This document shows, piece after piece, positions 1,650 to 22,372 of a stretch of 23,205 nt of DNA (position 1 is the stretch's first letter; each line of letters opens with the position of its first letter). This DNA comes from Prorocentrum cordatum (Eukaryota): the NCBI GenBank assembly GCA_963575745.1, contig CAUYUJ010000225.1:1488001-1511205 (forward strand), given 5' to 3'. The notes beneath the pieces were generated by a model. That model did no database searches, had not been told where the DNA came from, and worked only from the letters and a program-made list of their open reading frames with translations. Position numbers and translations under genes: made by a program.

Positions 1650-4625
1650 AGTCGTGCCTCCTGAGGGCCTCTTGGGGACCTATCGGGTCTTCGTGGGGGC
1701 GTCTGAAGGGCTTTTGGGGGTATCTCCGTGCTTCCTCAATTGGCTGTTGGAGGCACCTCTTGGGTGCTTCTTGGGGGGGCGTCTTGGGGCTTCTTGGGGT
1801 CCCTTGGGGGCATCGTCGGGGTTCACCTGGCAATCGGAAAGTGATGTTCTGCAATCTGAAGCCGTCATTGGCCGTCTGGGCTGCGTGGAGGTCCGACTTG
1901 AGGCCGCCTGGGGCCACATTGAGGCAATCCGGAAGCCTCCCAGGGGCCTCCTGGAGACAGTTTTGATGCATCGAAGGCACTGTTAGGCTATCTTGGAGTC
2001 CCTTGTACGTGTCCTGGGGGCCTTTCTGGGCCTCTTGGGAGGCTTTGGGGGGCCTCGTCGGACCACTTGGGGACTCTTGGGGCCTCCTGTGGGCCTCTTA
2101 AGGTGGAAGGCTCTGCTGTTGGGTTCGCGTTCTCCCTCTTGGGCCCCTTTGGGGCCTTCTTGGTGCCCTCTCGGGCCGCCTTTGGCGCCTCAAGCACCGT
2201 CTTGGGGCCCTGGTGGGCCGTCTTGGGGTCCTGTTGTTAGGTCGGGCATGTCCTCCTACAGGCCGATTTTGGAAGAAACATGAAAAATAATCAACAAGTG
2301 TTCAAAAATAGTCAGAAGAGTACGAAAAATCGCCCCCATACCATTTCTCTGCCACTCCTGAGTATTCTTCCTGTAGAGGGACATGCCCGACTTAACCGTG
2401 TCGGAGGCCTCTTGGGCTATCTTGGAGCGGTCTTGGAGGCCTCTTGGGCCGTCTTGGAGCGTCGGGATGCCCAATGGCTGAAACCTCGAAAATCAATCAA
2501 AAACCGATGGCAAGATAATGGTTTTTGCCTCTTGGGGCCTTCGTGGGAGGCCTCTTGGAACCTCTTCGGCCCCCTGGGGAGCTTCTTGGGGCCTCTTGGG
2601 GGATTCTCGGGGCCTCCTGAGAGCATCTCGGGGTGGACGGCTCGGATTGTCGGTTCGTGTTACTCCTCTAGGCCCCCTCTTGGGGCCGTCGTGGGGCCCT
2701 TTCGGGCCGCCTTGGGCGCCTCTGGCGCCGTCTTGGGGCCCTCTTGAGCTGTCTTGTGGCCGTCTTCGAGGCCTCTGGGGCTGTCTTGGGGTGGACATTG
2801 GGGCATCTTGGCCGTCGTGGAGCGTCGGGAAACTGAAATGGCGGAACTCGAAAGTCCTTGAAACACCACGGAAGATTAATGATTTTGCCTCCTGGGGCTC
2901 CTTGAGAGGCATCTGGGAGGCCTCTTGAAGCGTCTTGGAGGCCTCTTGGATAGTCAGGGGCTAATTCTGGGGTAATCTCGGGCCGTCACTGGTCGTTTTC
3001 GCAGTGTGGAAGCGCCATTTCTGGCGATCCGGGACCATCTTCGGGCGATTTTGCAAAAAGCCCCCGTCGCCCCAGCCTGGCCGCCAGGGCCCCGGTCCTC
3101 CCATGCGCTGTGGGAATCTCCCGATCGAGTCGGTTCGAATCGGCACGCACAAATCGATTCGATTCGAGACGGAGGAGCCAGAAAGACCCCTGTCGTGGCC
3201 GTCTCGAAACCGTTTCGGGCCGTCTCGGAACGCTCTGGGGGCCTTCCAGGCGCTTCCTGGAGTCGTCCTGGGCCGTCTGGAATCTGGAGGCTCTTGGCCG
3301 AGGGCGGCTGTGAAGACTCTTGGGGGCCGTGGGCCGTGCCTCTTGGGACGGCGTCGAGGATCGTCAGGAGTGTCTCACGGCGTCTCGGGGGAGTTTTTGG
3401 GTGCCTCGTTGGGGCCTCCTGGGGCTTCCTGGGGAGCCTCCTGGGAACTTCTTGGGGCCTCTTGGGGGCTTTTTGGGGGCTGTTGGGGGCGTCTCGGGGG
3501 CCTCCGGGGGCGGAGAGCTCGAAATGTTGGCTGGTGTTCCCCCTCGGAGCTCTCTGGAGACGTTCTTGGGGCGTTCTTGGGCTGCCTTGGAGGCCTTTTG
3601 GGCTGTCTTGGGGGCCTCTTGGGTAATCTCGACGTTTTCGTGGGGGCCTGATGGGGCGATATTTGGGAGTCCGGGACCGTCTTGGAGCGCCGGGAAGCTG
3701 AACAGGCAGAAACGGGAAGGCCCATCAAAAATCTAAACAAATCAATAATTTTGGCTTTTTGGGGCCCTTTTGGGGGTCCTCTTGGAAGCCCCTTGGGCCG
3801 TGTTGGAAGCAGTGTGGGCCATCTGGAGGCCATTTTGGGGGCGTTATCTCGGTGACTGCAGCCCTCTTGGAAGCCTCTCGCGGCCCTTTTCATTTGTGAT
3901 GAGGCTGTCTTGGGCCGTCTGGGGGCGTCCCTGGGCCGTCTCGGCACCCTCGTTGGGGCCTGTCAGGGCGATATTTGGGTGTCCGGGACCGTCTTGGAGC
4001 GCTGGGAAACTGAACAGGTAGAAACGCTGAAATGCACCCAAACCACAGAGAAATCAAAGGTTTTGGCTTTTTGGGCCCTTGGAGGAATGCTGTTGGAGAC
4101 TCTGTGGGCCGTGTTGGAAATCTTGTGGGCCATCTGGAGGCCATCTTGGGCGTGTTCGAAAGATGTTTTCGCGTTTCGAGCCCTCCTGGAGGCCTCTCGC
4201 GGCCCTTTTCATGTGTTGGGGCTGTTTTGCGCCGTCTGGGGCGGCCCTGGGCTCGCGGCGCCCTCGTGGGAGCCTGTTTGGACGATAATTGGGTATCCCG
4301 GACCGTCTTGGAGCGCCGAGAAGGTGAACAAGCAGAAACGGGAAAGTCCATCAAAAACCTAAACAAATCAATGATTGTGGCTTCTTGGGGCCCTTTTGGG
4401 GGTCCTCTTGGAAGCCCCTTGGGCCGTGTTGGAAGCCTTGTGGGCCATCTGGAGGCCATCTTGGGGGCGTTAGAACGACATTTCGGTGACTGTACCCCTC
4501 CTGGAGGCCTCTCGCGGCCCTTTTCATCCGTGTTGGGGCTGTCTTGGACTGTCTGGGGGCGTCCCTGGCGGCCCGGTGCCCCTATGGAGATTCAGGGGCC
4601 CCCTCCTGGGCCCCTCCGCCTCGTG
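1650..4625 (+). repeat. Dispersed CTTGGGGC/GGCCTCTTGG-rich repeat family, including about three tandem ~313-bp units at ~3650-4560
   Basis: The motif CGATAWTTGGG...GGACCGTCTTGGAGCGC...GAACAG recurs at ~3657, ~3969 and ~4283. More diverged units lie at ~2450 and ~2810. Confidence 0.85.
2237..2395. mobile_element. MITE family A copy inserted in a dispersed repeat (non-intronic)
   Basis: TTAGGTCGGGCATGTCCTCCTACAGG ... CCTGTAGAGGGACATGCCCGACTTAA. Internal TCAAAAATAGTCA is shared with the 17365 copy. 8-bp flanks TCCTGTTG and CCGTGTCG match at 5 of 8 positions. Confidence 0.85.
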
Positions 4626-5137: not shown

Positions 5138-5492
5138 CAGCCTCAGCCTCAGCCTGCCTCAGCCTCAGCCTCAGCCTGCCTCAGCCTCAGCCTGCCTCAG
5201 CCTCAGCCTCAGCCTGCTTCAGCCTCAGCCTCAGTCTGCCTTCAGCCTCGGCCTCAGCCTCAGCCTGCCTCAGCCTCAGCCTGCATCAGCCTCAGCCTCC
5301 CTCAGCCTCAGCCTCAGCCTCAGCATGCAGCCTCAGCTTCAGCCTCAGCCTCAGCCTCAGCCTCAGCCTGCAGCCTCAGCCTGCTGCCTCAGCCTCAGCC
5401 TCAGCCTCAGCCTCTGCCTTCAGCCTCGGCCTCAGCCTCAGCCTGCCTCAGCCTCAGCCTGCCTCAGGCCGCAGCATCAGCCTGCCTCAGCA
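5138..5492 (+). repeat. (CAGCCT)n hexamer microsatellite
   Basis: Direct reading; explains the poly-SA/SL/QP ORFs. Confidence 0.95.
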
Positions 5493-5493
5493 G

Positions 5494-5825
5494 CATTCAA
5501 AATGTGGCCCAGGAGTGGAGTTTTGGGAACTAGAAGAACACGAAGTGGCCTACAGTTGGCTCCGGGCATTCAAAATCATGCCCAGGAATGGAGTTCTGGG
5601 AACTTGAAGAGCACGAAGTGGCCTACAGTTGGCTCCGGGCATCCAAAATGTGGCCCGGGAATGGAGTTCTGGGAAATCGAAGAGCACGAAGTGGCCTACA
5701 GTTGGCTCCGGGCATCCAAAATGTGGCCCGGGAATGGAGTTCTGGGAAGTCGAAGAGCACGAAGTGGCCTACAGTTGGCTCCGGGCATCCAAAATGTGGC
5801 CCGGGAACGGAGTTCTGGGAGCACC
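5494..5825 (+). repeat. 73-bp minisatellite, about 4.5 copies
   Basis: CGAAGTGGCCTACAGTTGGCTCCGGG starts at 5541, 5614, 5687 and 5760. Confidence 0.93.
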
Positions 5826-6388
5826 AAGAGCGATTTTGCGAGGATGTCCCAAGCGATTTCGGCTTCGGCGGCAGCCTCCCCGGGTCCCGCCCAGACCCCC
5901 CTGAGGAGTCATGATGCTCTCTTTTGAAACCACTAGAAACCTATCAGCAAGAGCTGTTAGGTAAAATCATATGCACTAACTTAAAGCGGGCTCGTTACGT
6001 TAGGAGGAGGGATCAAGGAGAGGAGGCCGGCGAGGGGGGGGCCGTGCCCATCCGAGGGAACGGGGCAGCCCCCCCCGCCCCAAAAAATGCTTCGGCCTCT
6101 CAAGGCCCCAATCCCATTGGGGGGTCGAGATCCCCGCTCTGCAGTGGGATTCGCGGAACGGGGCGCCCCCCAGGTGCTTGTTATCTTCGCGCTGGCGCCG
6201 GCAGTGTGCACCTGAGGGAGCGCGGGTTGAAATGAGTGAGGGATCAGGAAGGATGTGGAGGGGCGTTCCGCTCTGAAGCGTCCTCACAATCTGGCAAAAC
6301 CGCAACCCCTCCCCGGGGGCGCCGCGCGTGCTGGACCAGGCACACGCGTCGCCCTAAGTCGGCGCGCACATATGAGAGGCCCATGTTT

Positions 6389-6508: not shown

Positions 6509-6799
6509 AGGGGCTCCCCAGAGGGGCTCCCCAGAAGGGCGCAGGGAGCCTTCCTCAGAGCCCTGGTGCGCACGACCTTGGCCGAAGGCCATCAGATATG
6601 CAAGTACAACAGTTCATGCAGGAATCTCTTGTGCATGTGCTGGTGCCACTGCTGCGAGCAGGCAGTGGAACGAGCGAGGAGGGGGTATCAACCTTGACCG
6701 CCCGCCCCCGCCCCCTTCCCTTGACCGCGCTCCGCGGCCGGGCGCAAGCGCGGCCGGTCGGGGCAGCCGGCCGGGGCAGCCGGCCGGGGCAGCCGGCCG

Positions 6800-7740
6800 C
6801 CCTCCCCTCCTGCTCGTCGTCCTCCTCCTCCTCCTCCTGCTCGTCCTCGTGCTCCTCCTGCTCGTCCTCTTTCTCCTGCTCCTCCTCCTCCTCCTCCTCC
6901 TCCTTTCTCCTGCTCCTCCTCCTCCTCCTCCTCCTCCTCCTCCTGCTCGTCCTCGTTCTCGTCCTCCTCGTCTTGCTCGTCCTCCTCCTCCTGGTGCTCT
7001 CTCCTCCTCCTCCTCCTCCTCCTCCTCCTCCTCCTCCTCCTCCTCCTCCTCCTCCTGGTGGTCCTCGTTCTCCTCCTCCTGGTGCTCTCCCCCCACCTCC
7101 TCCTCCTCGTCCTCCTCCTCCTCCTCCTCGTCCTCCTCCTCCTCTTCCTCCTCCTCCTCCTCCTCCTCCTCCTCCTCCTCCTGGTAGTCCTCCCCCTCCC
7201 CTCCTCCTCCTCCTCCTCCTCTTCCTGGTCGTCCTCGTTCTCGTCCTCCTCGTCTTGCTCGTCCTCCTCCTCCTGGTGTTCTCTCCTCCTCCTCCTCCTC
7301 CTCCTCCTCCTCCTCCTCCTCCTCCTCCTCCTCCTCCTGGTGGTCCTCGTTCTCCTCCTCATGGTGCTCTCCCCCCCCCTCCTCCTCCTCATCTCCTCCT
7401 CCTCCTCCTCCTCCTCCTCCTCCTCCTCCTCCTCCTCCTCCTCCTCCTTCCCCCCCTCCTCTTCTCTCCTCCTCCTCCTCCTCCTCCTCCTCCTCCTCCT
7501 CCTCCTCCTCCTCCTCCTCCTCCTCCTCCTCCTGGTAGTCCTCCCCCTCCCCTCCTCCTCCTCCCTCCTCCTCCTCCTCTTCTGGTCGTCCTCCTCCTCC
7601 TGGTCGTCCTCCTCCTCCTGCTCGTCCTCCTCCTCCTCCTGCTCGTCCTTCTTCTCCTGCTCCTCCTGCTCCTCGTCCTGCTCCTGCTCGTCCTCGTCCT
7701 CCTGGTCTTGCTCGTCCTCCTCCTCGTCGTGCTCTTGCCC
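6800..7740 (+). repeat. Long degenerate (CCT)n polypyrimidine tract with internal higher-order duplication
   Basis: Direct reading; the block at ~6945-7100 recurs at ~7228-7385. Confidence 0.95.
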
Positions 7741-7746
7741 CTGCTG

Positions 7747-8120
7747 AAAATGTGGCCCAGGAATGGGAGTTCTGGGAAGTCGAAGAGCACGAAGTTGCCT
7801 ACAGTTGGCTACGGGCATTCAAAATGTGGCCCGGGAATGGAGTTCTGGGAACTCGAAGAGCACGAAGTGGCCTAGAGTTGGCTCCGGGCATTCAAAATGT
7901 GGCCCGGGAATGGAGTTCTGGGAACTCGAAGAGCACGAAGTGGCCTACAGTTGGCTCCGGGGCATTCAAAAATGTGGCCCGGTGGCCTACAGTGGAGTGG
8001 CCCGGGAATCTGGGAAGTCGAAGACCACGAAGTGGCCTACAGTTGGCTCCGGGCATTCAAAATGTGGCCCGGGAATGGAGTTCTGGGAGGTCGAAGAGCA
8101 CGAAGTGTGTGACTGTTGGC
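7747..8120 (+). repeat. Second array of the 73-bp minisatellite, about 5 copies (one rearranged)
   Basis: Same unit as 5494-5825, followed by the same downstream segment (8153-8236 matches 5886-5967). Confidence 0.92.
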
Positions 8121-8616
8121 TTAAAACGACTTCTGCGGCACCCTGTCCGGCACCCGCCCAGACCCCCCTGTGGAGTCATCTGCTGCTCTCTTTTGACACC
8201 ACTAGAAACCTATCAGAACAAGCTGTTAGGTAAAAATCCTTCCAAAATCGAGCCCCAGACCCCGCCTCGGAGCCTCCTGGGGGCCTCCTGGAACCTCCTG
8301 GGGCCTCCTGGGCCTTCTGAACCTTCTGGCACCCCAGACCCCGCCTCGGAGCCTCCTGGGGGTGTCCTGAAACCTCCTGGGGCCTCCTGGGGCCTCCTGC
8401 GGCCTCCTGGAGCCTCTTGGGGCCTCCTGAAGCCTCCTGGGGTCTCCTGGGGCCTCCTGAGGCCGCCTGGGGCCTCCTGGGGCCTCCTGGGGCTTCAGAA
8501 CTACATGCACACAGAGACACAAATCACGCCCAACACATCACACGCTAGACAAACATAACACACACACACACACCCTACAACACACAAAAAGCACGCACCA
8601 CACGAAGCATACATCA

Positions 8617-11239: not shown

Positions 11240-11880
11240 CCTCTCGGGGCTCTCGTGGGGCGCCTTTTGAAGCTCTTTTGGGCTGTGTGGCGGCCCTCCT
11301 GGGCCGTCCCGGGACCCTCTTGGGCCGTCCTGGGGGGCTTGGGTCGTCTTTGGGCCCTCTTGGTTCTTCTTGGTGACCTCCTGCGGCCTTCTTGGGGCTC
11401 TCTGGTAAGCCTCTTGGTGCTCTTTGGGGCCGTCTTGGGGCTCTCTTGGGTCGTTTTGGCGCTCTTTGGGGCTGTCTTGGGGCTCCCTTGGGGGCTTCTT
11501 GGGCCGTCCTGGGGCGATCTTGGGGGCCTCTTGGGCCGTCTTGGACGCGATGAAGGCCAAAGAAGCGGATATGCTAAAAATGCACGTTTTCCAAAAGGGA
11601 ATGGGACGATTTTGACCTCTTGGGGGTCTTCTTGGGGGGAAGCCTCCTGGCGCGTCTTAAGAGCATCTTGGGCCGTCTTGAAGCCACCTTGAGGCCTCTT
11701 TGAGCGCTCATGAGCCGTTCTGGAGCGGTCTTGGGCCGCCTTGGGGCTTTGCGGGACCGTCCGGGGATGGCCGGGAGAAGCTCCCGAAACCGAACATCGG
11801 ATTTGAAGTCGGTGGGAGCTCCCAAAGCCGAATTGATGTACGGGGGGGTCAGGGGAGGCTTTCCGCTATAAGAATATTCG
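11240..11880 (+). repeat. Copy of the CTTGGGGC-rich dispersed repeat family
   Basis: Same GGCCGTCTTGG/GGCCTCTTGGG units and A-rich spacer (…GATTTTGACCTCTTGGGG) as 1650-4625. Confidence 0.8.
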
Positions 11881-11887
11881 AAGAGGA

Positions 11888-12510
11888 ATATATATATATA
11901 TATACACATACATACATACATACATACATACATACATACATACATACATACATACATACATACATACATACATACATACATACATACATACACATATATA
12001 TATATACATATACATATATACATTTATATACACATACCTACATACCTACCTACCTACCTGTCTACCTGCCTACCTACCTACCTACCTACCTACCTACAGA
12101 CATACACACATGCACACATACACACATACACACATACGCACATACGCACATACGCACATACACACATACACACATACACACATACACACATACACACATA
12201 CACACATGCATACATACATACATACATGCATACATACATACATACATTCATTCATTCATTCATACCTGCATACATGTACACACATACATACACATACACA
12301 CATACACACATACACACATACACACATACACACGTACGCACATACATACATACATACATACCTCCATGCACATATACATACATACATACATACATACATA
12401 CATACGTACAAACATACATACATACGTACATACGTGCATACATACAAACATACATGCACACATACACACATACATACATACATAAATACATACATACATA
12501 CATACATACC

Positions 12511-12541
<31 letters not shown>

Positions 12542-12988
12542 GATACATACATACATACATACACACATACATACATACACACATACATACATACATCCAT
12601 CCATACATCCATCCATCCATCCATACATACATACATACATACACACAGACAGACAGATATACATACATACATACACACATGCATACATGCATACATGCAT
12701 GCATGCATGCATGCATGCATACGTACACATACATACATACACACATACATGCACACATACATACATACATACATTCATACATACACATATGCATACATAC
12801 ACACATAAATATATACATACATACATGCATGCATGCATATACACATACATACACACGTCCATACATACATACACACATACATACAGACCGACAGGCAGAC
12901 AGACATACATGCATGCATGTATGCATGCATACACATATTTGCGCATGTATGTATGTATATATACATATATATATATACACATACCTAC
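11888..12988 (+). repeat. ~1.1-kb compound (TACA)n/(CA)n/(TACC)n microsatellite
   Basis: Direct reading; explains the HTYI/MYVC ORFs. Confidence 0.97.
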
Positions 12989-13199
12989 AAGTTCAGTCGC
13001 CAGCATTCCGCCCCTCATGCCACAACTGCTGAAAACAACAAAACTACGCGCTGAATTCCATCAACCCGTGAAGACGTAGGCGGTTCAGGGGACCCTTTCT
13101 TCCAACCCCTGTCTTCCCCTTCGGGGAGGGGTTTACCCTCCCCCTACCCCGCCTAGTAGGGGAAGTCCTCTCCTGAGCTTGGACGGCGGGGAGCGGGTC

Positions 13200-13699: not shown

Positions 13700-16600
13700 T
13701 GATATCGACATCTCCGCGAGAGCATGTCTGGTTCACTCCTCCTGGGTTTGTTGACGTTGATCCCGAGTTTCGATTAAACGGCTGCTCACCTTCTTCGTTA
13801 CACTGTTTTCTCTTGCTTCTTCCCACAGATCGGCCTGAAAAAGGTAAATCGTCTGGACATCCTCCGAGCAAATGCCGATCCAGCAAACGGCAGAAGTAGG
13901 AACTTCTCGGACCGTTTGCATTATCAAACCCACAACGGCGAGCCCCGACCGAAGGCAGGGGAGTGATCGGCGAACATACTAAGCTCGAGCTGATGAACCG
14001 ACGCCCCCGATTCACAAGGATGTTTTGCCCTGCGCATGGCAACTACTTGGTGACGTTGGTTTGCCCTCGCCTGGTCGTCACATAATTACCTCGACGGCAA
14101 GCTCATCGTGCTGGCCCCGTTCTCGCTCTACACCGTGTTCGGTGCCCGAGGCCCCATGCGCTTCGCTATAGAGTACTTTGACAACCTCCTTTCTGAAACT
14201 AGAGTTTCGGTTGCCATCCAGCCCGTGCGCTGCAGCGTGTATCTGTCGATGCTCGTTGATACAACTGTCCATACACGGTTGCGCACCTCTTTCATCCGTG
14301 GCCCCAAGATGTTGAGGAATTCGGAGCTGCACTCAATCTCTTTGATAATCAAGGTAATACACGGGCCCTCCCCGAGGAGCTATCCTGAACACTTGCGCTG
14401 CCAAGTGGTGTCGTCCCTCGATCCAACGCTCGCTGACTGGTGTCCTGGCTGCTCCATGTTTTTTGCCGCCAACAATCGCCAACGGATGCTTGTTGGTATC
14501 CCCAATGGTAGCCTGTATAAGTTATGCTATGTCGTCCCGCCATTACCGAAGTCTTCAGTGGTTGCGCTGTGCTCTCCGGCGGAAATCGTGCATCGGCACC
14601 TGGCATTGTGCTATGGTCATGAACGCTCTGAGCGAAACGCCGCCCGTGCCCTCAATACGTTTGGTGCGCAATTAGCTCTGCCGCACCCCGTCTGTTGCTG
14701 CGCGACGCTTCGTGTCCCACGTCGCCGCTGACAAGAAGTTGCGCTGTGCTGGCCTGGTGTCGTGGACAGAAAGCTCCCGTACTGCTGCGATCCTGGTCCA
14801 TCCGGAGTGGACCAGGTAGTCCGGGATGGTCCAAGACAGCCCTCAAGAGACACCACGGAGGCTGAGATCCTTCAAGGAATAAAGTTTCTTCAGTGATTTG
14901 GGACTCATCCCCTTCATTTGATTTGGGCTTCTGAGGCCTCAGGATGGCTCCAACATCATCGAGCAGTGTACTGCGCCGAACAACGCAATACAACGCGTAG
15001 ACACACCGAAAAGCAAAGGCTATTGGATATCGCAACCCAACTTGGGCCCAACACCCCGGTGTGGTCCCGAATGGACCACTACAAAACCAGAAAGGCCCCC
15101 GCGAGCCCCCCAAGCCCCTGAGACACCCTCAGCGAGCCCCCGGATTCATCGCAAATACTCCCATGAATCCACTCGAAGCGACCCGCCTGCCGAAATGCTT
15201 ACCACATGCCTTCGTAGAAACGAGAGCCTTGTTCCGCGTGCACTTGTCTGACCTCTCGTGGCCTTACCCTTTCACACATGGCACTTCCAACATAACCAAA
15301 TGCTAGCGATGACACAGTGTGGGTCGACGAAATCAGCAAGTGAAGCGGCGGAGAGAGCAAAGCGAATGCCAGCGATGATTGCAGCATGGGCCAGCGATGA
15401 CACAGTATGGGCAAGAGGGAGAAGTGGGAGGTCATCACAGGGACCGTCCCCCTCACGTCCTTTCCTCGACGCCGAACAGATGGACACGAGAGAGCGCGCC
15501 ACTGAAGCCGAGGGGCTGACAGGCTGGCGAGAGGAGCGCGGGTGAGGCATGATGCAGAGGTGGCTGGTGAGCACGAAGGATGCAAAGATGGGAACCAGAC
15601 GGCTCAGGATGAAGAGACAGAGAGGAAGAGGAGCTGGAGGCGGAGGCTGGGGCGGAAGAGCGGAGGAGGGGGGAAAGGAGGAAGGGGGGTATAAACAGAG
15701 GGGGGCTGGGCAGCAGAAACAAAGGACAAAAACATGTTTTGTGATCCGCCCCCCGCAGCCTGACGGAAGATGGGGTGGAGGAGGCCAAACGAAAAGGAGG
15801 GATGAACAGAAAAGAATTGGAGGAGGCACGTAAAACACGACTGTGGACCCGCGACTCGCACTCCTCGCTCTCCTCGAGGATGCAGGAAACAGGATGAGAG
15901 AGGAGGAGGAGGAGGAGGAGGAGGAGGAGGAGGAGGACATCTCATGCCAAGGCTTCTCGGCAACATCGGCAGCACAAGGAGAGCTGAAGAATACCGTGAA
16001 AAGAACCATGGAACCATGACCCCCCAACAACCGCGCCGCACCGGTTTCACGACGCGAATGGCGACATGCCAACAAAGACCACGCAAGGGCTGTCGCGATG
16101 GCCGACGCAGCGGCCGACGCGATGGCCGACACTCAAACTTTTCCTTTCGCCCTTACCGCCTCCCTCCTTTTCGCATCCCCTTACGATGTCGATGATGGCG
16201 TGAACATAGTCCCTAGTGTTTCCGTAGTGGCCCCAGAAACTTGCTCTGTTTTCCTGGAAAGGTTTCGGACCCTAGACACGACAGTCGCTGAACAACGTTC
16301 AAACAAATCTGGACAATCGCTGATGGCAAGTGGTCCTGAGCATAATTACCATTGAGATCGTTACCACCAGCAGTGTAGTGGCCCAGCAGGTGGCAGGGGT
16401 GTGCGCAGCAAGGACCTGACTCTTGCCCACCAACTTGTCCCCCTCCGCCTTCTCAACCCTGTGGACGGCGACACGTCGAAGGGTCACGCTGTGTCCGGAC
16501 ATTTGCCTGCTGTTCAATTATTCAGCATTCGGAGAGGCCTGGTCGGGGCAGAACGGGCAGAGATATTCCCAAGGATGATGCGAACCACATTCGCGCCAAA

Positions 16601-16850
16601 GCTGGAATCTTGTTAGCCAGTGAAGCTGCTTCCTCGAGAAGCCCCTCGAATTTCTGGAGCTTGCCCTCCCAACACAAACATATCACATCAGCATCCAAAC
16701 GCACCGAAACCTTGGATACTTGTGCAATCAACCGCTCCAGATCGTAGCTGATCCCCTCTGAATCCGCGGCAACCGTCGCTGGGCTGCCGCCACACGAGTG
16801 GCCCAAACTGGTGGCCACGTTGGGCAGGCTGCCAGGGTCGAGGGCCGGCA
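13700..16850 (-). pseudogene. Decayed non-LTR (LINE-like) retrotransposon ORF2 remnant (APE-type endonuclease plus reverse transcriptase)
   Basis: Motif-like fragments, read by eye across frameshifts and stops, occur in the expected order on the minus strand. Endonuclease: LDADVICL (~16690), VLAAHTP (~16400), TLLV/GNDLNG (~16355), TRDYV (~16210). RT: KGK..NKALVSTKACGKHF (~15270-15190), AFRCVYALYCVVR (~15000), GVRQS (~14685), A/DDIA (~14533), EFLNILG (~14310). Boundaries approximate. Confidence 0.55.
15896..15937 (+). repeat. (GGA)n microsatellite
   Basis: Direct reading. Confidence 0.9.
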
Positions 16851-17214
16851 CTTGCGCTTCGAGCAGGTTCTCTATCGTCTTCCCATTCGGCGGCTCTGCA
16901 GATCCCTTGAACTCCTCGAAGTTTGGGGGGGGTCACGCAGAAGAACTGGCCCTCAAACGCGTTCGGCCCTGCCGCCGCCTGCAGCGCCCAGAGGAGAGCG
17001 GCAGCCGGAGCAGCACAAAAAAGTGCACCCTGCGCAGAGCACAGCCTGGAGCACCGCAATCGGACTGACTCGAGCGAAGCTGGCTCCAGCCAAACTGGCG
17101 ACTGCACCGCGTCAGGGAGGAGAGCGAGGAGAGGGAGCAGGAGGAGAGAGCACAGGCAGGAAAAGAAAAAGAAAGGAGGGGGGCGCGCAGTCGACCACGC
17201 CATCACGGCGCCCG

Positions 17215-17358
17215 TCACCCGACGCTGTCGCCCACGCCGCAGGCGGCCGGGGTCTCGAAGCGCACGACGAAGGAGCACGCGTAGGTCTCCGTGATGGACA
17301 GCAGCGCGTCAGCTGGAGCACACTCGAACAGGACCTCGACGCTGCGGTTGACGGAGGC
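17215..17358 (-). CDS. Exon 7 (terminal): MRH domain C-terminal part and stop
   Basis: ASVNRSVEVLFECAPADALLSITETYACSFVVRFETPAACGVGDSVG* in ORF 17215..17445. AAG|G acceptor. Confidence 0.88.
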   Translation of the reverse strand, partial: ASVNRSVEVLFECAPADALLSITETYACSFVVRFETPAACGVGDSVG

Positions 17359-20300
17359 CTTGTGTTTGGTCGGGCATGTCCCCCTACAGGCGGACTTTGG
17401 GCGAAAGAAGCACAAATAGTCAACCGAATTCTCAAAAATAGTCAAGGAGAGTCCAACAAATCGTCCCCAGACTATTTTTGATCAATTTTGAATGTGCCTC
17501 CTCTGGAGGGACAGGCCCGACTTGAGCCTTGTGGCACCACTCGCCGTCGCCCATGTTCAGGCGGCTGTAGTCGCGCCTCAGCTGCCCGCTCTCCCAGAAC
17601 GCCTCCGCGAAGGCCCCTCCGCGCCCCAGCACGAAGGGCCGCCCCTCCTCGCCGATCTGGTGGGTGACCCTGTCGAGGAGGCAGACCTTGTAGATGGCGC
17701 TGCCCTCGTCCAGCCGGAAGCAGCCCTTCTCTGGGGGAGCGAAGCCTGGCAGAAACACAAAGACTCGGAGGTCCGCGCGGATGTCTCGGATCCGCGCTGG
17801 ACCCCCCTGGCGCGCTCCGCGCGCCAGGGAGGGGGGTCCAGCGCGCGGATCCGAGAACTCCGCGCGGACCTGCGAGTCTTGCTGCTTTACGCCACTCTTC
17901 GCGCCCCCCTTCTCCGCCACGGCCAGGAACGCGTGATCGGGGCCACCCGGCAGCCCCGAGTACTGCGGCTGCTGCGCCAGCTGGCGCCCCCTCTCGGCGT
18001 GTCGCGCCCGCGCCGCCGCGCCGAGCAGCGCCCTCGACGCACGCTCGGCCTGCCCTGGGCCCTCTGCCTCGAGACAGCGGTCCGGGCACCTGGCGTCAGG
18101 TCGAGCATGCCCCCCCTACAGGCGGAGCTTGGAACGGAAATCATGAGCAACATACCCAAAATGCTCCCAAGATGGCCGAAAACAATCGAGAGATCGCCCC
18201 CAGAGTATTTTTTGTGACTATTTTTGACGACTCCTCCCGTAGAGGGACATGCCCGACTTAAACCTGGCGCCAGTCTGCCACTCGTCCTCCCCGGCGCAGC
18301 AGTCGCAGATGCCGTCGTTCACCGCCGAGTGCGGCACCAGCCGCGCCCTGGCGCCCGACGGCTCTCCCGCCCCCGGAGGAGCGGCGAGGCGGGCCCAGCC
18401 GCAGTAGAAGCCGGCAGGAGGACGCCAACTCTCTACACCGCACACTGTACGGTGGGGGCAATAGGACAAGGAACCCTTCGATAAGGAATCCAGGGTCTGG
18501 AAGCTCGTGGATCTCTAATCTAGAGCCCTCCTAGATGGAGTCGGAGTAGATGGGGTCGAAGGATCGCGCCGCATCGGCGATACATCGGCGATGCATCGGC
18601 GATGCACCGGCGATGCATCAGCGACGTCGGCGATGCATCGGCGACGTCCGCGTGAAGAAAATCGGGCTCCGCATCGAGCCGCACCGGCGATGCATCGGCG
18701 ATGCGGCGCGATCATCCGACCCCATCTACTCCGACCCCATCTGGGAGGCCTAGAGGCAAAGGACAAGGAACCCTTCGATAAGGAATCCAGGATCTGGAAG
18801 CTGCTGGATTTTCAGTCGTGCATCGGCCATGGACATCACCGCCGCCCTTCTCGGGTAAGGACTCCTCCAGCGTCTGCAGCCTGCTGGGCAGACTCCTTCA
18901 CAAGCGCCTCCACCGTACACACCGATTCTGGGCCTGGGCTCACCCTGGGCCCAGGATCTGCGCGGACGCCCTCCCGGCTGGGGCACGGAGGCACGGATAG
19001 GCGAGCACGCTCCACTACCCGCAGAGCAACTACGCGCAAATGGCCTGGATCCGCCGCGGGGGATCTACGATAAATCACACCGAAGCTGGCGTGTGTTTGT
19101 CGGACGTTTGCGAGCAGGCACTCTGCGAGTGGTGGAACGCGCTCCGTGCATGGAGGCCATGCACGCCGCTGCTGGGCCCGGGCTCGGCAGGGCCAGGCGC
19201 GGTGCAGGCGCGCAGAGGCTGGTGCCCTCCGAGCCGGGCAGGCCCGGGCGGGCGACCGCCCCCGAGCACGCGGACGTGGCCGGCTCGTCGCTGCCGTCGG
19301 CGCAGTCGCAGAAGTCGTCGTTCAGCACCGCCGGCAGGCCGAGCGCGGGGCGCAGGCCGTCGGCGCAGGCGAACTCGGCGAGGCCCGCGGCGGCAGGGGC
19401 GTAGCGCTCGCGGAGGCGCGGGGCGACGCCGCGCAAGAGGTCCCGCGCATGGCTGCCGGTGCCCTCTGCAAGGCAGCACCGCTCGAAGGTGAAGCTCGCG
19501 TCCCAGCAGGCGGGGTTGCCGCCAGGCCCCTGGCAGCAGAGCTCTTCCAGAGGGTCCGGGGCCTCCAACTTGAAGGGAGCTTCTACACCAGATCCGGAGG
19601 CGCAAACCTCCGCGCTGCTCGGATGTTGCCGGAGGTGGCCCTGGCCACAGGAGCTCTCAGCGCTTCCAGGGGGGCATCCGATGGTCTCCAGAGCACCGCT
19701 GACGAGGCCTAGGAGGCCCCGGGGGGGCCCAAGATGGAGCGAAGAACCGTGGACACCTTGGCTCAGGACCATCCCCTGCAGCCTCAAACCTGCCGGGGGT
19801 CCCAACTCGTGTGGTGACAGGCCACGCGGCGACCTCGGAATACCAAGAGACCTCACCGCACGGTCCGTCACCGCACGGTTTTGGGACCCTGGAGGCCTCA
19901 GTCACCCGATACATTCTCGGAGAAGTACCCGTGTCCCAATAATACTGAGCGGGGACCCCGAACCCCACGGACTCACCACTCGGTGTGGTCACCACACAGC
20001 TTGGGGGGCCCCCGATCACCTCCTCCATCGGCGGGGGCGGGCTGGTGGGCTACAGTCAACCCGTACAATGGGGACGCACGATAAGGATGCAAAGGCCTTG
20101 GAAGGGCGTAGATGTTTTTCGCCCGGGTTGGTTTTCGCCCGGTGCGTTTCACCCGATTCGTTTCGCCCGGGGTTTGCTTTCGCCCGGGTTGGCTTTCGCC
20201 CGGGTTGGCTTTCGCCCGGGTTGGCTTTCGCCCGGATTGGTTTTCGCCCGGGTTGGCTTTCGCCCGGGTTGGCTTTCGCCTGGTTGGCTTTCGCCCAGGT

Positions 20301-20606
20301 TGGCTTTCGCCTGGGTTGGCTTTCGCCCGGGTTGGCTGTCGCCCAGGTTGGCTTTCGCCCGGGTTGGCTTTCGCCTGGGTTGACTGTCGCCCGGGTTGGC
20401 TGTCGCCTAGGCTCGTTTTTGCCTGGGTTCCCGCGTCCATCAGGAGCGCGGGCAACGGGCATGGATCCCGGGAGATGGCCGCGGGCCGGAGGAGAACAGG
20501 AAAGGCAAGACCGCGAGGTGCATGGAGGAGGGAGACCAGGAGGGGAACGGGAGGACGGGGAGTCGTCGTCGTAGTAGTCGTCCTCCTCGTTGTCGTAGTC
20601 GTCGAT

Positions 20607-20644
<38 letters not shown>

Positions 20645-22034
20645 CGACGACATCGACGTCGACGTCGACGTCGTGGTCGTCGTCGTTGTGATATTGTCGT
20701 GGTGGTGGTCGCCGTCGTTGTCTTAGCCGTTGTCGTCGTCGCCGTACTCGCCGTTGTCGCTGTCGTCGTCGTCCTCCTGGTCGCCGTCGTTGCCGTCGTC
20801 CTCGTCGTGGTCGTTGTCGTCGTAGTGGTCCCGCCCGTCAAGGTGCGCCTGCCCGACCCGACCCGCCCGTTAGGGTTCGCGCGTGCTGAGTCGAGCTCGC
20901 CCCACACTTTTGTGCCCCGCCCGCCCGACCCGACCCGCGTGATAGGGTCCTCCCGACACGACCCGACCCGTCCCGCCCGTTAGGGTCCGCCCGCCCGACC
21001 AGACCCGCCCGTTAGGGTTCACGCGTGCCCACTCGAGCGCGCCCCATACTTTAGTGTCCCGCCCGCCCAACCCGACCCGACACATCCCGCCCGTCAGGGT
21101 CCGCCCGACCCGATCCGACCTGCCCGTTGAAGTTCACGCGTGCTCGCTCCAGCGTGCCCCATACTCCAGTGACTCCAGTGCCCCGCTCGCCCGACCCGAC
21201 CCGCGTGTGAGGGTCCGCCCGACCCCACCCCGACCCGTCCCGCCCGTTAGGGGGGTCCGCCCGCCAGACCGGACCCGCCCGTTAGGGTTCACGCGTGCCC
21301 ACTCGAGCGCGCCCCACACTTTAGTGTCCCGCCCGCCCGACCCCGACCCGCCCGTTAGGGTCCGCCCACCCACCCGACCCGTCCGCCCGTTAGGGTCCGC
21401 CCGACCCGACCCAACCGCGTTAAAGGCGTGCTCGTCCGGCGCGCCCAAACACTTAGTGTCCCGCCCGCCCGACCCGACCCGCCCGTTAGGGTCCGCCCGA
21501 CCCGACCCCACCCGTCCCGCCCGTTAGGGTCCGCCTGCCCCACCCGACCCGCCGGTTAGGGTTCACGCGTGTCGCTCGGGCGTGACCCACACTTCAATGC
21601 CCCCGCCCACCCGACCTGACCCGCCCGTTGCGCCGAGGGCCTCCCCGGAGGCCCAAAAAGGGGCAAGCGAGGGAAGGGCAGCGGTGTCGGTGTATCGAAC
21701 AGGGCAGGGCTGTCTAGTAAACGCCCAGGGCCGTTTAGTAAGCGCCAATCATCGAATACGGGTGGTTTTTCCTCCCTTGATTCTCCTTCCTGGACCCTCC
21801 TCGATCCCCCTCCCCCTCCGAAGCTCGCAAAGCGGCCCAGAGCCCGCGGAGGCTCCGGACCCTCAAGGCTGGCGAGAAGCCGCCCGTCCAGCAGCCGGGG
21901 CCCGAGGGCGGCGGCATCGCGCCCTCGGCAGCCCGGGGCGCGGCCGCGCCGAGGGCCGCAGGCACCGCGGCCGAGGGCCACGCCCTGCACCGAGGCGAGC
22001 CGCCAGAGGGCGCGCGGCCCAGGCTCCGCCCCAT
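17215..22034 (-). CDS. PRKCSH: Spliced gene for a glucosidase II beta subunit (PRKCSH)-like protein. Preferred exon model: 22034-21870, 19541-19178, 18933-18908, 18430-18264, 18089-17909, 17725-17528, 17358-17215 (1245 nt, about 414 aa)
   Basis: Fragments in ORF-track translations match the family in the correct order. LDLa-like 1: EFACADG...[21 protein letters not shown]. LDLa-like 2: FYCG...VPHSAVNDGICDCCAGEDEW...RCPDRC. MRH: GPDHAFLAVAEKGCFRLDEGSAIYKVCLLDRVTHQ...LG...MGDGEWCHKASVNRSVEVLFEC...ITETYACSFVVRFETPAAC. Reading phases are consistent across all junctions in the model. The symbol denotes family likeness; orthology is not proven. Confidence 0.85.
17365..17525. mobile_element. Introner/MITE family A copy forming intron 6 (intron 17359-17527, GC-AG)
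   Basis: Ends are TTTGGTCGGGCATGTCCCCCTACAGG and CCTCTGGAGGGACAGGCCCGACTTGA (inverted). Perfect 8-bp TSD GCCTTGTG at 17357-17364 and 17526-17533. Confidence 0.9.
17528..17725 (-). CDS. Exon 6: MRH domain N-terminal part
   Basis: GCFRLDEGSAIYKVCLLDRVTHQ...GDGEWCHK in ORF 17432..17920. AAG|G acceptor and AAG|GC donor. Confidence 0.88.
17726..17908. mobile_element. Palindromic element (family B) forming intron 5
   Basis: Nearly full-length fold-back (AAGACTCGGAGGTCCGCGCGGA...GGCGCGC TCC GCGCGCC...TCCGCGCGGACCTGCGAGTCTT). Terminal GGGGGAGCGAAG/CTTCGCGCCCCC. Direct repeat CCCTTCTC at 17724-17731 and 17907-17914. Confidence 0.8.
17909..18089 (-). CDS. Exon 5: RCPDRCLEAEG...helical linker...GPDHAFLAVAEK
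   Basis: CAG|G acceptor. My translation in the frame continuous with ORF 17432..17920 gives the PRKCSH-like CPxxC and GPxxxF motifs. Confidence 0.85.
18096..18261. mobile_element. Introner/MITE family A copy forming intron 4 (intron 18090-18263, GT-AG)
   Basis: Ends are TCAGGTCGAGCATGCCCCCCCTACAGG and CCCGTAGAGGGACATGCCCGACTTAA. Perfect 8-bp TSD ACCTGGCG at 18088-18095 and 18262-18269. Confidence 0.9.
18264..18430 (-). CDS. Exon 4: second LDLa-like module (FYCG...VNDGICDCCAGEDEW)
   Basis: ORF 18218..18469. AG|GT donor at 18263; 5' boundary approximate. Confidence 0.85.
18463..18809. mobile_element. Nested element in intron 3: 50-bp inverted arms enclosed by ~50-bp direct repeats
   Basis: Direct repeats AGGACAAGGAACCCTTCGATAAGGAATCCAGG... 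at 18463-18512 and 18760-18809. Inverted arms at 18527-18576 and 18699-18748 (4 mismatches) surround an internal CATCGGCGATG 11-mer array. Confidence 0.75.
18908..18933 (-). CDS. Exon 3 (tentative micro-exon GPESVCTVE; may extend towards ~18846)
   Basis: CAG|G acceptor at 18933 is in the phase needed by exon 2. AG|GC donor after 18908 is in the phase needed by exon 4; other in-phase donors exist further on. Confidence 0.4.
19178..19541 (-). CDS. Exon 2: LCCQGPGGNPACWDASFTFERCC and first LDLa-like module
   Basis: Lies within ORF 19065..19871. The acceptor is uncertain (19541 or 19562, both in frame). The donor at 19177 is favoured by a 14-bp junction direct repeat; 19225 is a same-phase alternative. 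Confidence 0.8.
20115..20430 (+). repeat. 16-bp minisatellite (TTGGCTTTCGCCCGGG)n within intron 1
   Basis: Exact units at 20189-20204 and 20205-20220; roughly 19 copies in total. Confidence 0.93.
20562..20828 (+). repeat. Degenerate (GTC)n microsatellite within intron 1
   Basis: Direct reading. Confidence 0.92.
20829..21630 (+). repeat. Complex C-rich minisatellite (CCCGACCCGACCCGCCCGTTAGGGTCCG variants) within intron 1
   Basis: More than ten CCCGTTAGGGT cores, interspersed with recurrent TTCACGCGTG...CTCGAGCGCGCCCCAYACTTTAGTGTCCCG blocks. Confidence 0.88.
21870..22034 (-). CDS. Exon 1: putative signal peptide and first CW..CC half-motif (MGRSLGRAP...AAVPAALGAAAPRAAEGAMPPPSGPGCWTGGFSP)
   Basis: ATG at 22034 lies 25 nt after an SL-like motif. 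CWTGGFSP is completed by (E)LCC in the next exon, paralleling CWDASFTFERCC. GC donor at 21869. Confidence 0.7.
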
Positions 22035-22059
22035 CGCCGCCCCCCCAGCGCCACGAGGA

Positions 22060-22081
22060 CTTGAGGCAAAAGGGCCCCTGG
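22060..22081 (-). other. Relict dinoflagellate spliced-leader (DinoSL-like) sequence
   Basis: Minus strand reads CCAGGGGCCCTTTTGCCTCAAG versus DinoSL DCCGTAGCCATTTTGGCTCAAG. 16 of the 21 fixed positions are identical without gaps, and the motif ends 25 nt before the ATG. Confidence 0.75.
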
Positions 22082-22087
22082 CTGGGA

Positions 22088-22372
22088 CTCCTCCTGCTCC
22101 TCCTGCTCCTCCTGCTCCTCCTCCTCCTCCTCCTCCTCCTCCTCCTCCTCCTCCTCCTCCTCCTCCGCCTTCGGCTCCTCCTCCTCTTCCATCCTCCTCC
22201 TCCCTCTCCTCCTCCTCATCCTCCTCCTCCTCCTCCTCCTCCCTCCTCCTCCGACTCTCGCGTCCTCTTCGCCTCTCCCCTCCGCCTCCGTCTCTCCGCC
22301 TCCTCCTCCCCTCCCCGCCTCCTCCTCGTCCGTCCTCTCCCCTCCTCCTTCTCCTCCGCCTCCTCCTCTCAT
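22088..22372 (+). repeat. (CCT)n tract immediately upstream of the relict SL
   Basis: Direct reading. Confidence 0.92.

What the first reader, a model, noticed from the sequence alone, without database searches (positions are those of the whole stretch)
17215..22081. Retroposed mRNA re-intronised by transposons: relict spliced leader plus six repeat-structured introns
Seen: an SL-like 22-mer 25 nt before the ATG, and inverted repeats and/or junction direct repeats in every intron. Established: genomic relict DinoSLs mark genes recycled through trans-spliced mRNA, which would arrive intron-less. Inference: all six introns postdate retroposition and come from at least four element families of different ages. 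The locus would record a full cycle of intron loss by retroposition and regain by Introners.
Basis: partly seen in the sequence, partly recalled or inferred. Interest (0 to 1): 0.85.

Follow-up and report, generated by a model that had tools for sequence, protein, structure and literature searches.

The report
Spliced-leader relic gene with transposon introns
A dinoflagellate gene for a glucosidase II beta-like protein carries a decayed copy of the spliced leader in its 5' UTR and five introns that all look like inserted hairpin transposons, a tidy example of two known processes at one locus.

Summary
The finding is real in outline and wrong in one count. The minus strand of 16946-22079 holds an expressed gene for a 381-aa glucosidase II beta-like protein. 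Transcript contigs from 4 runs of 4 studies give five introns, not six.

A 22-mer at 22081-22060 matches the dinoflagellate spliced leader (DinoSL) at 16 of 21 positions. It ends 25 nt before the first ATG and is retained in the transcripts.

- **Introns 3, 4, 5:** each is a miniature inverted-repeat element plus one copy of a perfect 8-bp target-site duplication. Each duplication contains AGG, which supplies both splice sites. Two families are involved.
- **Introns 1 and 2:** both are composite and carry inverted repeats. Their junction repeats are 2 and 6 nt.
- **Boundaries:** introns 1, 2 and 4 have no GT/GC/GA...AG pair within the possible cut positions.

Relict DinoSLs, Introner-type introns with 8-nt duplications, and repeated intron boundaries are all published. 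The claim that every intron postdates a retroposition is plausible but untested here, because no genome, paralogue or orthologue was available. Novelty: new member of a known kind. Interest is moderate; the non-canonical boundaries are the more unusual part.

The parts
22060..22081 (-). Degenerate relict DinoSL in the 5' UTR, ending 25 nt before the ATG
   Evidence: 16/21 to the DinoSL core and 13/15 to its 3' part. 3 window hits against 0.07 in shuffles. Transcript contigs cover it up to 22079, 22074 and 22065.
21869..22079 (-). Exon 1: 5' UTR, then CDS from the ATG at 22034-22032
   Evidence: Contig pieces; ORF.
19544..21868 (-). Intron 1, 2325 nt. About 40-nt terminal inverted repeats and a 2-nt junction repeat. 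The interior holds a nested inverted-repeat element (19796-20005), a 16-nt satellite (20117-20407), (GTC)n (20562-20823) and a 38/132-142-nt satellite (20828-21562). Possible boundaries are only CC..AG, GC..AA or AG..GA.
   Evidence: Joint in 4 of 4 runs; boundary options; end duplex z -4.4; repeats.
19232..19543 (-). Exon 2: Cys/Trp-rich motif and the first LDLa-like module of the glucosidase II beta fold
   Evidence: PF12999 at E 3.4e-13, profile positions 13-73.
18409..19231 (-). Intron 2, 823 nt, composite, with a 6-nt junction repeat. One element spans 18446-18919 (14-nt terminal inverted repeats) and contains 50-nt direct repeats (18463-18512, 18760-18809) around a 71-nt-arm palindrome (18524-18751). 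A second palindromic element spans 18944-19182 with an inner pair at 19003-19144. No AG acceptor is possible.
   Evidence: Joint in 3 of 4 runs; boundaries; inverted repeats; end duplex z -2.1.
18262..18408 (-). Exon 3: second LDLa-like module
   Evidence: PF12999 profile positions 85-111.
18088..18261 (-). Intron 3, 174 nt: a family-1 miniature inverted-repeat element plus an 8-bp target duplication (18088-18095 = 18262-18269). GT..AG when cut at 18090-18263.
   Evidence: Hairpin -85 kcal/mol, z -4.1.
17907..18087 (-). Exon 4: linker region
   Evidence: colinear with homologues.
17724..17906 (-). Intron 4, 183 nt: a family-2 near-perfect palindromic element plus an 8-bp duplication (17724-17731 = 17907-17914). 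At the AG|G offset used by introns 3 and 5 the ends are GG..AG; AA..AG and AG..AG are the only other cuts ending in AG. The intron is a multiple of three and has no in-frame stop.
   Evidence: Hairpin -155 kcal/mol, z -12. Read-through frame.
17526..17723 (-). Exon 5: first part of the MRH domain
   Evidence: PF07915 (weak, E 0.099); alignment.
17357..17525 (-). Intron 5, 169 nt: a family-1 element plus an 8-bp duplication (17357-17364 = 17526-17533). GC..AG when cut at 17359-17527.
   Evidence: Hairpin -69 kcal/mol, z -3.7.
16946..17356 (-). Exon 6: end of the MRH domain, stop codon at 17217-17215, then the 3' UTR
   Evidence: PF13015 at E 3.7e-5; contigs.
17069..17104 (-). Two abutting SL-like units (16/21 followed by 11/15), the pattern of a twice-recycled leader. 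They lie downstream of the stop codon and upstream of the next minus-strand ORF.
   Evidence: Joint chance is about 2e-6 for the whole window.
2235..2393 (+). Third copy of the family-1 element, 77% identical to intron 5, with decayed flanking repeats (5 of 8)

Best explanation
The locus is an expressed gene of a GC-rich dinoflagellate for a 381-aa glucosidase II beta-like protein.

Its 5' UTR keeps a decayed DinoSL. This is the mark of a gene copy that re-entered the genome by reverse transcription of a trans-spliced mRNA.

All five of its introns look like inserted non-autonomous DNA transposons (Introner-type elements).
- Introns 3, 4 and 5 are each exactly one miniature inverted-repeat element plus one copy of its 8-bp target-site duplication.
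- Each duplication reads NNNNAGGN on the coding strand. The upstream copy supplies the donor (AG|GT, AG|GC, AG|GG) and the downstream copy supplies the AG acceptor.
- The element folds into a long hairpin that brings the two ends together.
- Introns 1 and 2 are larger composites with inverted-repeat ends, grown by nested insertions and satellite expansion.

Shown: the gene model, removal of the five stretches from RNA, the element and duplication anatomy, and the SL similarity.

Inferred: that the gene arrived without introns, and that every intron was gained afterwards.
For: Gene model:
- One contig of 1465 nt (X1) lies on six exon pieces with 0 mismatches, and the same joints occur in the other runs. 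I1, I3, I4 and I5 are joined in 4 of 4 runs and I2 in 3 of 4, across four studies; one run is on record as polyA RNA.
- The joined exons give one open frame of 381 aa.
- Exon-wise Pfam hits run in profile order: PF12999 at E 3.4e-13 and 1.1e-3, PF07915 at E 0.099, PF13015 at E 3.7e-5.
- The protein is colinear with two glucosidase II beta homologues.

Transposon origin:
- The junction repeats are perfect 8/8 for three introns.
- Family 1 has three copies in the window, with shared terminal repeats.
- The two arms of family 2 pair over 181 nt.
- In run X1, 50 and 47 different contigs break off at the two sides of the family-2 core, and 41 contigs carry a variant base in the inner palindrome of intron 2. 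Both elements are therefore multi-copy in the transcriptome.
- The three short introns fold as hairpins with z -3.7, -12.1 and -4.1. End-to-end pairing is significant for 4 of 5 introns.

Relict leader:
- 16/21 matches, 7.6e-7 per position.
- A second, tandem relic 36 nt long lies behind the gene, showing that leader relics occur in this stretch of genome.
- Contigs include 20 of the 22 relic bases.

Background from the literature:
- Introner elements with 4- and 8-nt duplications that recruit splice sites from AGGH are described in dinoflagellates (bioRxiv 10.1101/2020.10.14.339549, parts 1-2 of 4 read).
- In the GC-rich Prorocentrum cordatum only 2.4% of annotated introns meet the introner-element pattern (supplement of PMC10666404, passages). 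Five of five repeat-structured introns would be unusual for a gene with inherited introns, if the window's organism is comparable; the organism was not established.
Against: - Timing is not shown. Transposon-derived introns could have been present in the parent gene and carried over by retroposition of an unspliced transcript, which published reviews consider common (PMC6050394).
- Relict-SL genes have as many introns as other genes (3.74 against 4.17, and 16.74 against 17.1; PMC5585692 Table 2).
- The relic fails the 9-nt exact-match rule used in that paper.
- A fresh SL on the transcript was not seen. The X1 contig carries 5 letters beyond 22079 that do not fit the genome, but the tool did not print them.
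- Introns 1 and 2 are not simple element-plus-duplication units. The 2-nt repeat of intron 1 is at chance level, and the end pairing of intron 2 is weak (7 of 300 shuffles as good).
- Introns 1, 2 and 4 have no GT/GC/GA...AG pair at any allowed cut, so ordinary spliceosomal removal is not self-evident.
- Three of the four runs are of unrecorded kind. They are taken as RNA only because they hold about the exonic share of the sampled words (0.25-0.28 against 1460/5301).
- No other genomic copies of either family could be fetched outside the window.
Confidence: 0.58

Rival explanations
1. The leader relic is real, but some or all introns, especially the large composite introns 1 and 2, were already in the parent gene. 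They came along because the retroposed template was an incompletely spliced, already trans-spliced pre-mRNA, or because the relic dates from an older cycle. On this reading only the three small elements, if any, are later gains.
For: Reviews and genome surveys report intron-containing relict-SL genes and read them as retention of parental introns (PMC6050394 and PMC5585692, passages). Introns 1 and 2 are heavily reworked by nested elements and satellites, which suggests greater age. Their junction repeats are short (2 and 6 nt).
Against: All five introns have inverted-repeat ends, which is unusual against a published background of 2.4% in a comparable genome. The intronic halves of the three 8-bp duplications are intact (0 changes in 12 free positions) while the relic has 5 of 21 changes. 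That fits younger insertions, but only weakly: about 0.04 if the positions are neutral and of equal age (my estimate).
Confidence: 0.2
2. The SL-like 22-mer is a chance or convergent sequence in the leader, for example a T-run promoter-like motif. The gene was never retroposed and is an ordinary dinoflagellate gene colonised by Introner-type elements.
For: Only 16 of 21 positions match, and the longest exact run is 6. The published 9-mer criterion is not met. One of the three window hits (19747-19767, + strand) lies inside intron 1 on the other strand and has no obvious meaning.
Against: Shuffles give 0.07 such hits per window against 3 seen. The local-composition chance is about 8e-5 for a 100-nt leader. 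The best-preserved part is the TTTT...CTCAAG 3' part, which published relics also retain. A textbook tandem relic lies 5 kb away on the same strand.
Confidence: 0.12
3. The window copy is a transposon-riddled silent allele or paralogue. The perfect 'spliced' contigs come from a sister copy with empty insertion sites, so the joints reflect DNA, not RNA processing.
For: Removing an element plus one duplication copy is exactly what an empty site looks like. Three of the five joints have no standard splice dinucleotides. Dinoflagellate genes are often multi-copy. The tool gave no check of the joined form in DNA runs (table 5b).
Against: The exons and UTRs match the contigs at 1460 of 1460 bases, which is hard to reconcile with a dead copy old enough to collect five insertions, nested elements and satellites. 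A 151-nt contig with 0 mismatches lies inside intron 2 across unique sequence (X1 record 3), so this locus is transcribed. All three 8-bp duplications carry AGG at the same offset, as expected for spliced insertions. Intron 1 has only a 2-nt repeat and does not look like a simple empty site.
Confidence: 0.08

Closest known systems
Relict DinoSL / recycled cDNA genes of dinoflagellates (Slamovits and Keeling 2008, recalled; Song et al. 2017, PMC5585692; review PMC6050394)
   Same: A leader-like sequence lies just upstream of the coding region on the coding strand. The TTTT...CTCAAG part is best kept, and the relic is retained in the mRNA. A neighbouring tandem pair shows the 22+15 nt arrangement.
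   Different: It is more decayed than the published calling threshold: the longest exact run is 6, not 9. No parent copy is known. A fresh leader on the transcript was not seen.
Introner-like elements of dinoflagellates (Roy et al., bioRxiv 10.1101/2020.10.14.339549; Curr Biol 2023, not read)
   Same: These are non-autonomous inverted-repeat elements that become introns on insertion. They make 8-nt target duplications, and the splice sites are recruited from an AGG(H) in the duplication. GC donors are common and several families occur in one genome.
   Different: In the parts of the preprint that I read, only the 4-nt AGGH class is said to take both splice sites from the duplication, and the simple 8-nt classes are given as GHN6. 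Here an 8-nt NNNNAGGN duplication gives both sites. One intron would use GG as donor, which is outside GH.
Introner elements and non-canonical introns of Amoebophrya (Farhat et al. 2021, PMC7789003)
   Same: Introns with inverted repeats near both ends, short direct repeats over the borders, predicted hairpins that join the exon ends, and no fixed boundary dinucleotides.
   Different: Those are in a parasitic early-branching lineage that seems to lack U1. Their repeats are 3-5 nt and their stems 8-20 nt. Here the repeats are 2-8 nt, the stems are much longer, and the organism looks like a GC-rich core dinoflagellate.
Identical repeated intron boundaries (IRIB) of dinoflagellate introns (Mendez et al. 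2015, PMC5032977)
   Same: Two to nine identical bases at both intron borders, present once in the mRNA, usually containing AGG.
   Different: That paper did not tie the repeats to transposon duplications. Introns 1 and 2 here lack the AGG.

Membership tests
Relict DinoSL (retroposed-gene tag) | Significant similarity to the 22-nt DinoSL on the coding strand | tested here: met
   16/21; 7.6e-7 per position; 3 hits against 0.07 in 300 shuffles.
Relict DinoSL (retroposed-gene tag) | Lies within 500 bp upstream of the ORF | tested here: met
   Ends 25 nt before the first ATG of the transcript.
Relict DinoSL (retroposed-gene tag) | At least a 9-nt exact match (criterion of PMC5585692) | tested here: not met
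   The longest exact run is 6 nt.
Relict DinoSL (retroposed-gene tag) | Relic present in the mRNA behind a fresh trans-spliced leader | tested here: inconclusive
   Contigs reach 22079, 22074 and 22065, so the relic is transcribed and kept. The 5 further letters of the X1 contig were not shown.
Relict DinoSL (retroposed-gene tag) | A parent copy with fewer relics and its own introns | not testable with these tools
   No genome is held for the window.
Introner / introner-like element | Terminal inverted repeats and target-site duplication bounding the intron | tested here: met
   Introns 3, 4 and 5 have 8/8 duplications and long terminal repeats. Introns 1 and 2 meet this only in part.
Introner / introner-like element | Removed from mRNA exactly as element plus one duplication copy | tested here: met
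   Joints with 8 ambiguous bases in 4 of 4 runs.
Introner / introner-like element | Many similar copies forming introns in unrelated genes | tested here: inconclusive
   Family 1 has 3 copies in the window, two of them introns of this gene. Family 2 and the palindrome of intron 2 occur in tens of different transcript contigs. Whether those copies are introns could not be seen.
Introner / introner-like element | Standard splice dinucleotides (GT/GC/GA...AG) | tested here: not met
   Met for introns 3 and 5 only. Not met for introns 1, 2 and 4 at any allowed cut.
Amoebophrya-type introner element | 8-20 nt inverted repeats and 3-5 nt direct repeats within 30 nt of the intron ends, with non-canonical ends | tested here: inconclusive
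   Inverted repeats are present in all five introns, but the direct repeats are 2, 6, 8, 8 and 8 nt, outside the 3-5 nt range. Three introns have non-canonical ends.
Glucosidase II beta subunit / PRKCSH family | N-terminal paired LDLa-like modules and a C-terminal MRH domain | tested here: met
   PF12999 at E 3.4e-13 and PF13015 at E 3.7e-5, both above cut-off; PF07915 weak. Colinear alignment. No C-terminal ER-retention motif, which the two homologues have.

The most novel reading that the evidence does not exclude
In this core dinoflagellate the transposon's own anatomy may be the signal for RNA excision, whatever the boundary dinucleotides. That anatomy is a hairpin of inverted repeats flanked by the target duplication. 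Three of the five introns here have only non-standard options (CC..AG or GC..AA; no AG at all; GG..AG at the shared AG|G offset), yet all are removed cleanly. If this reading is right, any such insertion is an intron from the moment it lands, as proposed for Amoebophrya and resembling the non-conventional introns of Euglena. That would explain how a retroposed, intron-free gene is refilled so quickly.
Probability: 0.3. Interest if true: 0.7.

Novelty: new member of a known kind. Interest (0 to 1): 0.4.

Why it matters
Dinoflagellate genes are among the most intron-rich known, although their mRNAs are constantly recycled into the genome as intron-free copies. A locus that carries both a leader relic and introns with intact transposon signatures is a concrete, checkable example of how the two processes could balance. 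The published reading of intron-bearing recycled genes leans on retained parental introns, so a clear case of gained introns would add the other half. The three non-standard boundaries also matter in practice: gene-calling pipelines that allow only GT/GC/GA...AG would mis-model this gene.

Tried and rejected
- **Whole-genome search for element copies, paralogues and empty sites:** no genome is held for this window.
- **Metagenome scan with a 30-nt stretch of the 5' UTR, to catch a transcript with its leader:** 0 matches.
- **Metagenome scan with the family-1 terminal repeat:** 3 loci. Each shares only one arm of 19-34 nt, in contigs of 66-75% G+C. I judged these chance matches, not family members.
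- **Rfam on the whole window:** 0 matches.
- **Pfam on 7 neighbouring ORFs:** 0 families.
- **Homologue search with exon 2 among longer proteins:** only 2 hits, neither the window's own product, so no public gene model could be compared.
- **A mini-exon inside 18409-19231, which would give six introns:** rejected, because three runs join 18408 directly to 19232.
- **Nested or recursive splicing to rescue standard sites for introns 1 and 2:** rejected by reasoning. The outermost acceptor would still have to lie in a window without AG (intron 2), and no donor can be rebuilt at the 5' border of intron 1.
- **Reverse-transcriptase template switching across hairpins as the source of the joints:** unlikely. 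All five joints sit in one contig in four studies, and one of them spans 2.3 kb with only a 2-nt repeat.
- **Parts of the stretch without contig cover:** not used as evidence.
Full report
**What is at the coordinates.** The finding spans 17215-22081. The coding strand is the minus strand. No whole genome is held for the window, so I worked from the window itself, public run contigs and the literature. The window averages about 58% G+C and the gene about 65-70%. With the leader-like sequences and the intron style, this points to a GC-rich dinoflagellate. I did not try to name the source.

**Gene model from transcripts.**
- A search of public runs found 20 rows holding part of the stretch, and none held half or more of the sampled words. 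The best rows held 0.25-0.28 of the words, which equals the exonic share (1460 of 5301 bases).
- I laid four runs from four studies: X17 is on record as polyA RNA, and X1, X2 and X10 are of unrecorded kind.
- One 1465-nt contig of X1 lies on six pieces with no mismatch: 16946-17356, 17526-17723, 17907-18087, 18262-18408, 19232-19543 and 21869-22079. Contigs of the other runs repeat the same joints.
- There are therefore five introns, not six:

| Intron | Coordinates | Length (nt) |
|---|---|---|
| I1 | 19544-21868 | 2325 |
| I2 | 18409-19231 | 823 |
| I3 | 18088-18261 | 174 |
| I4 | 17724-17906 | 183 |
| I5 | 17357-17525 | 169 |

- The joints for I1, I3, I4 and I5 are in 4 of 4 runs, and the I2 joint is in 3 of 4.
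- A low-depth 151-nt contig with no mismatch lies inside I2 (18898-19048). This is a weak sign that this very locus is transcribed before processing.

**The protein.**
- The joined exons have one long frame from the first ATG (22034) to the stop at 17217-17215, giving 381 aa.
- Exon-wise Pfam scans give Glucosidase II beta subunit-like families in profile order:
  - PF12999 positions 13-73 in exon 2 (E 3.4e-13)
  - PF12999 positions 85-111 in exon 3 (E 1.1e-3)
  - PF07915 in exon 5 (E 0.099)
  - PF13015 in exon 6 (E 3.7e-5)
- A database search with exon 2 found only two longer relatives, both with these three families. The spliced protein is colinear with them.
- The protein is shorter in the middle than the two relatives. 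It has no C-terminal ER-retention motif and no obvious signal peptide.
- Its N-terminus carries two copies of a Cys/Trp-rich motif, the first of which is completed only across the I1 junction.

**The leader-like sequence.**
- The DinoSL is printed in PMC5585692. The minus strand at 22081-22060 matches its 21-nt core at 16 positions and its last 15 nt at 13.
- The window has three hits at >=16/21, against a mean of 0.07 in 300 dinucleotide shuffles, none of which reached three.
- With the local base composition the chance is 7.6e-7 per position.
- The second hit, at 17104-17084 on the minus strand, is followed directly by an 11/15 copy of the truncated 15-nt form. This is the published signature of a twice-recycled message, with a joint chance of about 2e-6 for the window. 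It lies behind the stop codon and before the next minus-strand ORF.
- The third hit (19747-19767, + strand) lies inside I1 and remains unexplained.
- The relic fails the 9-nt exact-run rule of PMC5585692; its longest exact run is 6.
- Transcript contigs reach 22079 (X1, with 5 further letters that do not fit the genome and were not printed), 22074 (X2) and 22065 (X10). The relic is therefore retained in the mRNA and is not trimmed at its own terminal AG.
- An end at 22079 is what a fresh leader joined after the AG at 22079-22078 would give, since the leader also ends in AG. This is inference only.

**The three small introns.**
- I3, I4 and I5 can each be cut at nine equivalent places because 8 bases are repeated at both borders.
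- The repeats read CGCCAGGT, GAGAAGGG and CACAAGGC on the coding strand, so AGG sits at the same offset in all three.
- Cutting after that AG gives GT..AG for I3 and GC..AG for I5. It gives GG..AG for I4, which has no GT/GC/GA...AG option at any of the nine cuts.
- Between the repeats, I3 and I5 are two diverged copies of one element with shared terminal inverted repeats. A third copy lies at 2235-2393 (77% identical to I5 over 163 nt), with flanking repeats decayed to 5 of 8.
- I4 is a different element, a near-perfect palindrome whose arms pair over 181 nt.
- As RNA the three fold into hairpins of -85, -155 and -69 kcal/mol (z -4.1, -12.1, -3.7). The hairpins bring the two borders together.
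- In X1 alone, 50 and 47 different contigs break away at the two sides of the I4 core. The element is therefore present in many transcripts.
- This is the anatomy of a miniature inverted-repeat transposon that became an intron on insertion, with both splice sites taken from the duplicated target.

**The two large introns.**
- **I1:**
  - About 40-nt imperfect inverted repeats lie right at its ends (end-duplex z -4.4, 0 of 300 shuffles as good).
  - The junction repeat is only 2 nt.
  - The interior holds a nested inverted-repeat element, a 16-nt satellite, a (GTC)n run and a 38/132-142-nt satellite.
  - The only possible borders are CC..AG, GC..AA or AG..GA.
- **I2:**
  - The junction repeat is 6 nt (CCGGCT), and no AG acceptor is possible at any of its seven cuts.
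  - It is a composite of at least two inverted-repeat elements, one of which encloses a 71-nt-arm palindrome between 50-nt direct repeats.
  - End-to-end pairing is weak (z -2.1; 7 of 300 shuffles as good).
  - A variant base in its inner palindrome is carried by 41 contigs in X1, so that piece is multi-copy.

**How it most likely works.**
- *Shown:* the five stretches are absent from polyadenylated RNA, and their removal restores a colinear glucosidase II beta frame.
- *Shown:* three of them equal one transposon plus one duplication copy.
- *Inferred:* the elements inserted at AGG-containing targets, so that the duplication gave a donor and an acceptor at once, and the hairpin helps to pair the ends.
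- *Inferred:* the leader relic means the gene copy came from a mature, spliced mRNA and was intron-free on arrival, so its introns are later gains.
- Two weak arguments favour this order.
  - All five introns are repeat-structured, while only 2.4% of annotated introns met a comparable pattern in the GC-rich Prorocentrum cordatum (supplement passages of PMC10666404). The comparison holds only if the organisms are alike, and that survey allowed standard donors only.
  - The 12 unconstrained bases of the three duplications are unchanged, while the relic has 5 changes in 21. If both were neutral and of equal age this would happen about 4% of the time (my estimate).

**What argues against the full story.**
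- Relict-SL genes carry as many introns as other genes (Table 2 of PMC5585692).
- Both that paper and the review PMC6050394 (passages) allow or favour inheritance of parental introns through retroposition of unspliced transcripts.
- Nothing here dates I1 and I2.
- The empty-site rival (the mRNA comes from a sister copy without the insertions) cannot be excluded without DNA data. It is unlikely given 1460 of 1460 identical bases and the shared AGG offset.

**Comparison with what is known.**
- Relict leaders and gene recycling are established (PMC5585692, PMC6050394).
- Introner-like elements with 4- and 8-nt duplications, recruitment of both sites from AGGH, and frequent GC and GA donors are described for Symbiodinium and Polarella (bioRxiv 10.1101/2020.10.14.339549, parts 1-2 of 4 read).
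- Identical repeated intron boundaries of 2-9 nt are described for several dinoflagellates (PMC5032977, passages).
- Hairpin introns with arbitrary boundaries are described for Amoebophrya (PMC7789003, passages).
- One full-text search for such non-canonical hairpin introns in other dinoflagellates returned only the Amoebophrya paper among dinoflagellate work. One search linking retrogenes, relics and intron gain returned no paper that makes the re-intronisation argument in its title or abstract. The library does not cover subscription journals. I did not read the printed Current Biology version of the Introner paper, which may discuss it.

**Verdict.**
Transposon origin is well supported for three introns and plausible for two. 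The leader relic is likely real. The order of events is not shown.
- The locus is a good specimen of known processes rather than a new kind of thing.
- The least expected feature is that three of the five introns lack any standard boundary pair and are still removed.

Noticed in passing
window 17069-17104 (minus strand): Two abutting leader-like units (16/21, then 11/15 to the truncated 15-nt form). This is the classic arrangement of a twice-recycled message. They lie in the 3' UTR or intergenic stretch ahead of the next minus-strand ORF (16522-16932), which has no Pfam match.
   Followed up: partly
window 19747-19767 (+ strand, inside intron 1): A third 16/21 match to the leader, on the strand opposite to the gene and just before a nested inverted-repeat element (19796-20005). 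It may be chance or a fragment of another recycled message.
   Followed up: no
window 2235-2393: A third copy of the family-1 element, 77% identical to intron 5, with flanking 8-mers matching at 5 of 8. One flank still reads NNNNAGGN on the minus strand. Whether it lies in an intron of another gene is unknown.
   Followed up: partly
window 17724-17906: Intron 4 is 183 nt (61 codons) and has no in-frame stop, so a transcript that kept it would still encode a full-length protein with a 61-aa insert.
   Followed up: no
window 5040-5930 and 7540-8240 (+ strand): A repeated ORF-like unit occurs many times in two blocks. The blocks are separated by a long Pro/Leu/Ser/Glu-type low-complexity array (about 6700-7750). 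The unit has a recurring '...CGPGMEFWE.EEHEVAYSWLRA...' translation in the frames listed.
   Followed up: no
window 11600-13000: An AT-rich microsatellite-like block (G+C down to 35%) of CATA/TACA-type repeats, in sharp contrast to the rest of the window.
   Followed up: no
window 22088-22368: A (CTC)n array of about 94 copies lies directly upstream of the relic on the + strand. It keeps the gene's reading frame open far upstream of the ATG and attracts many unrelated contigs.
   Followed up: no
L001-L003 (metagenome contigs): The 19-nt terminal-repeat motif of family 1 occurs once each in three high-G+C metagenome contigs without a second arm. These are most likely chance matches.
   Followed up: yes
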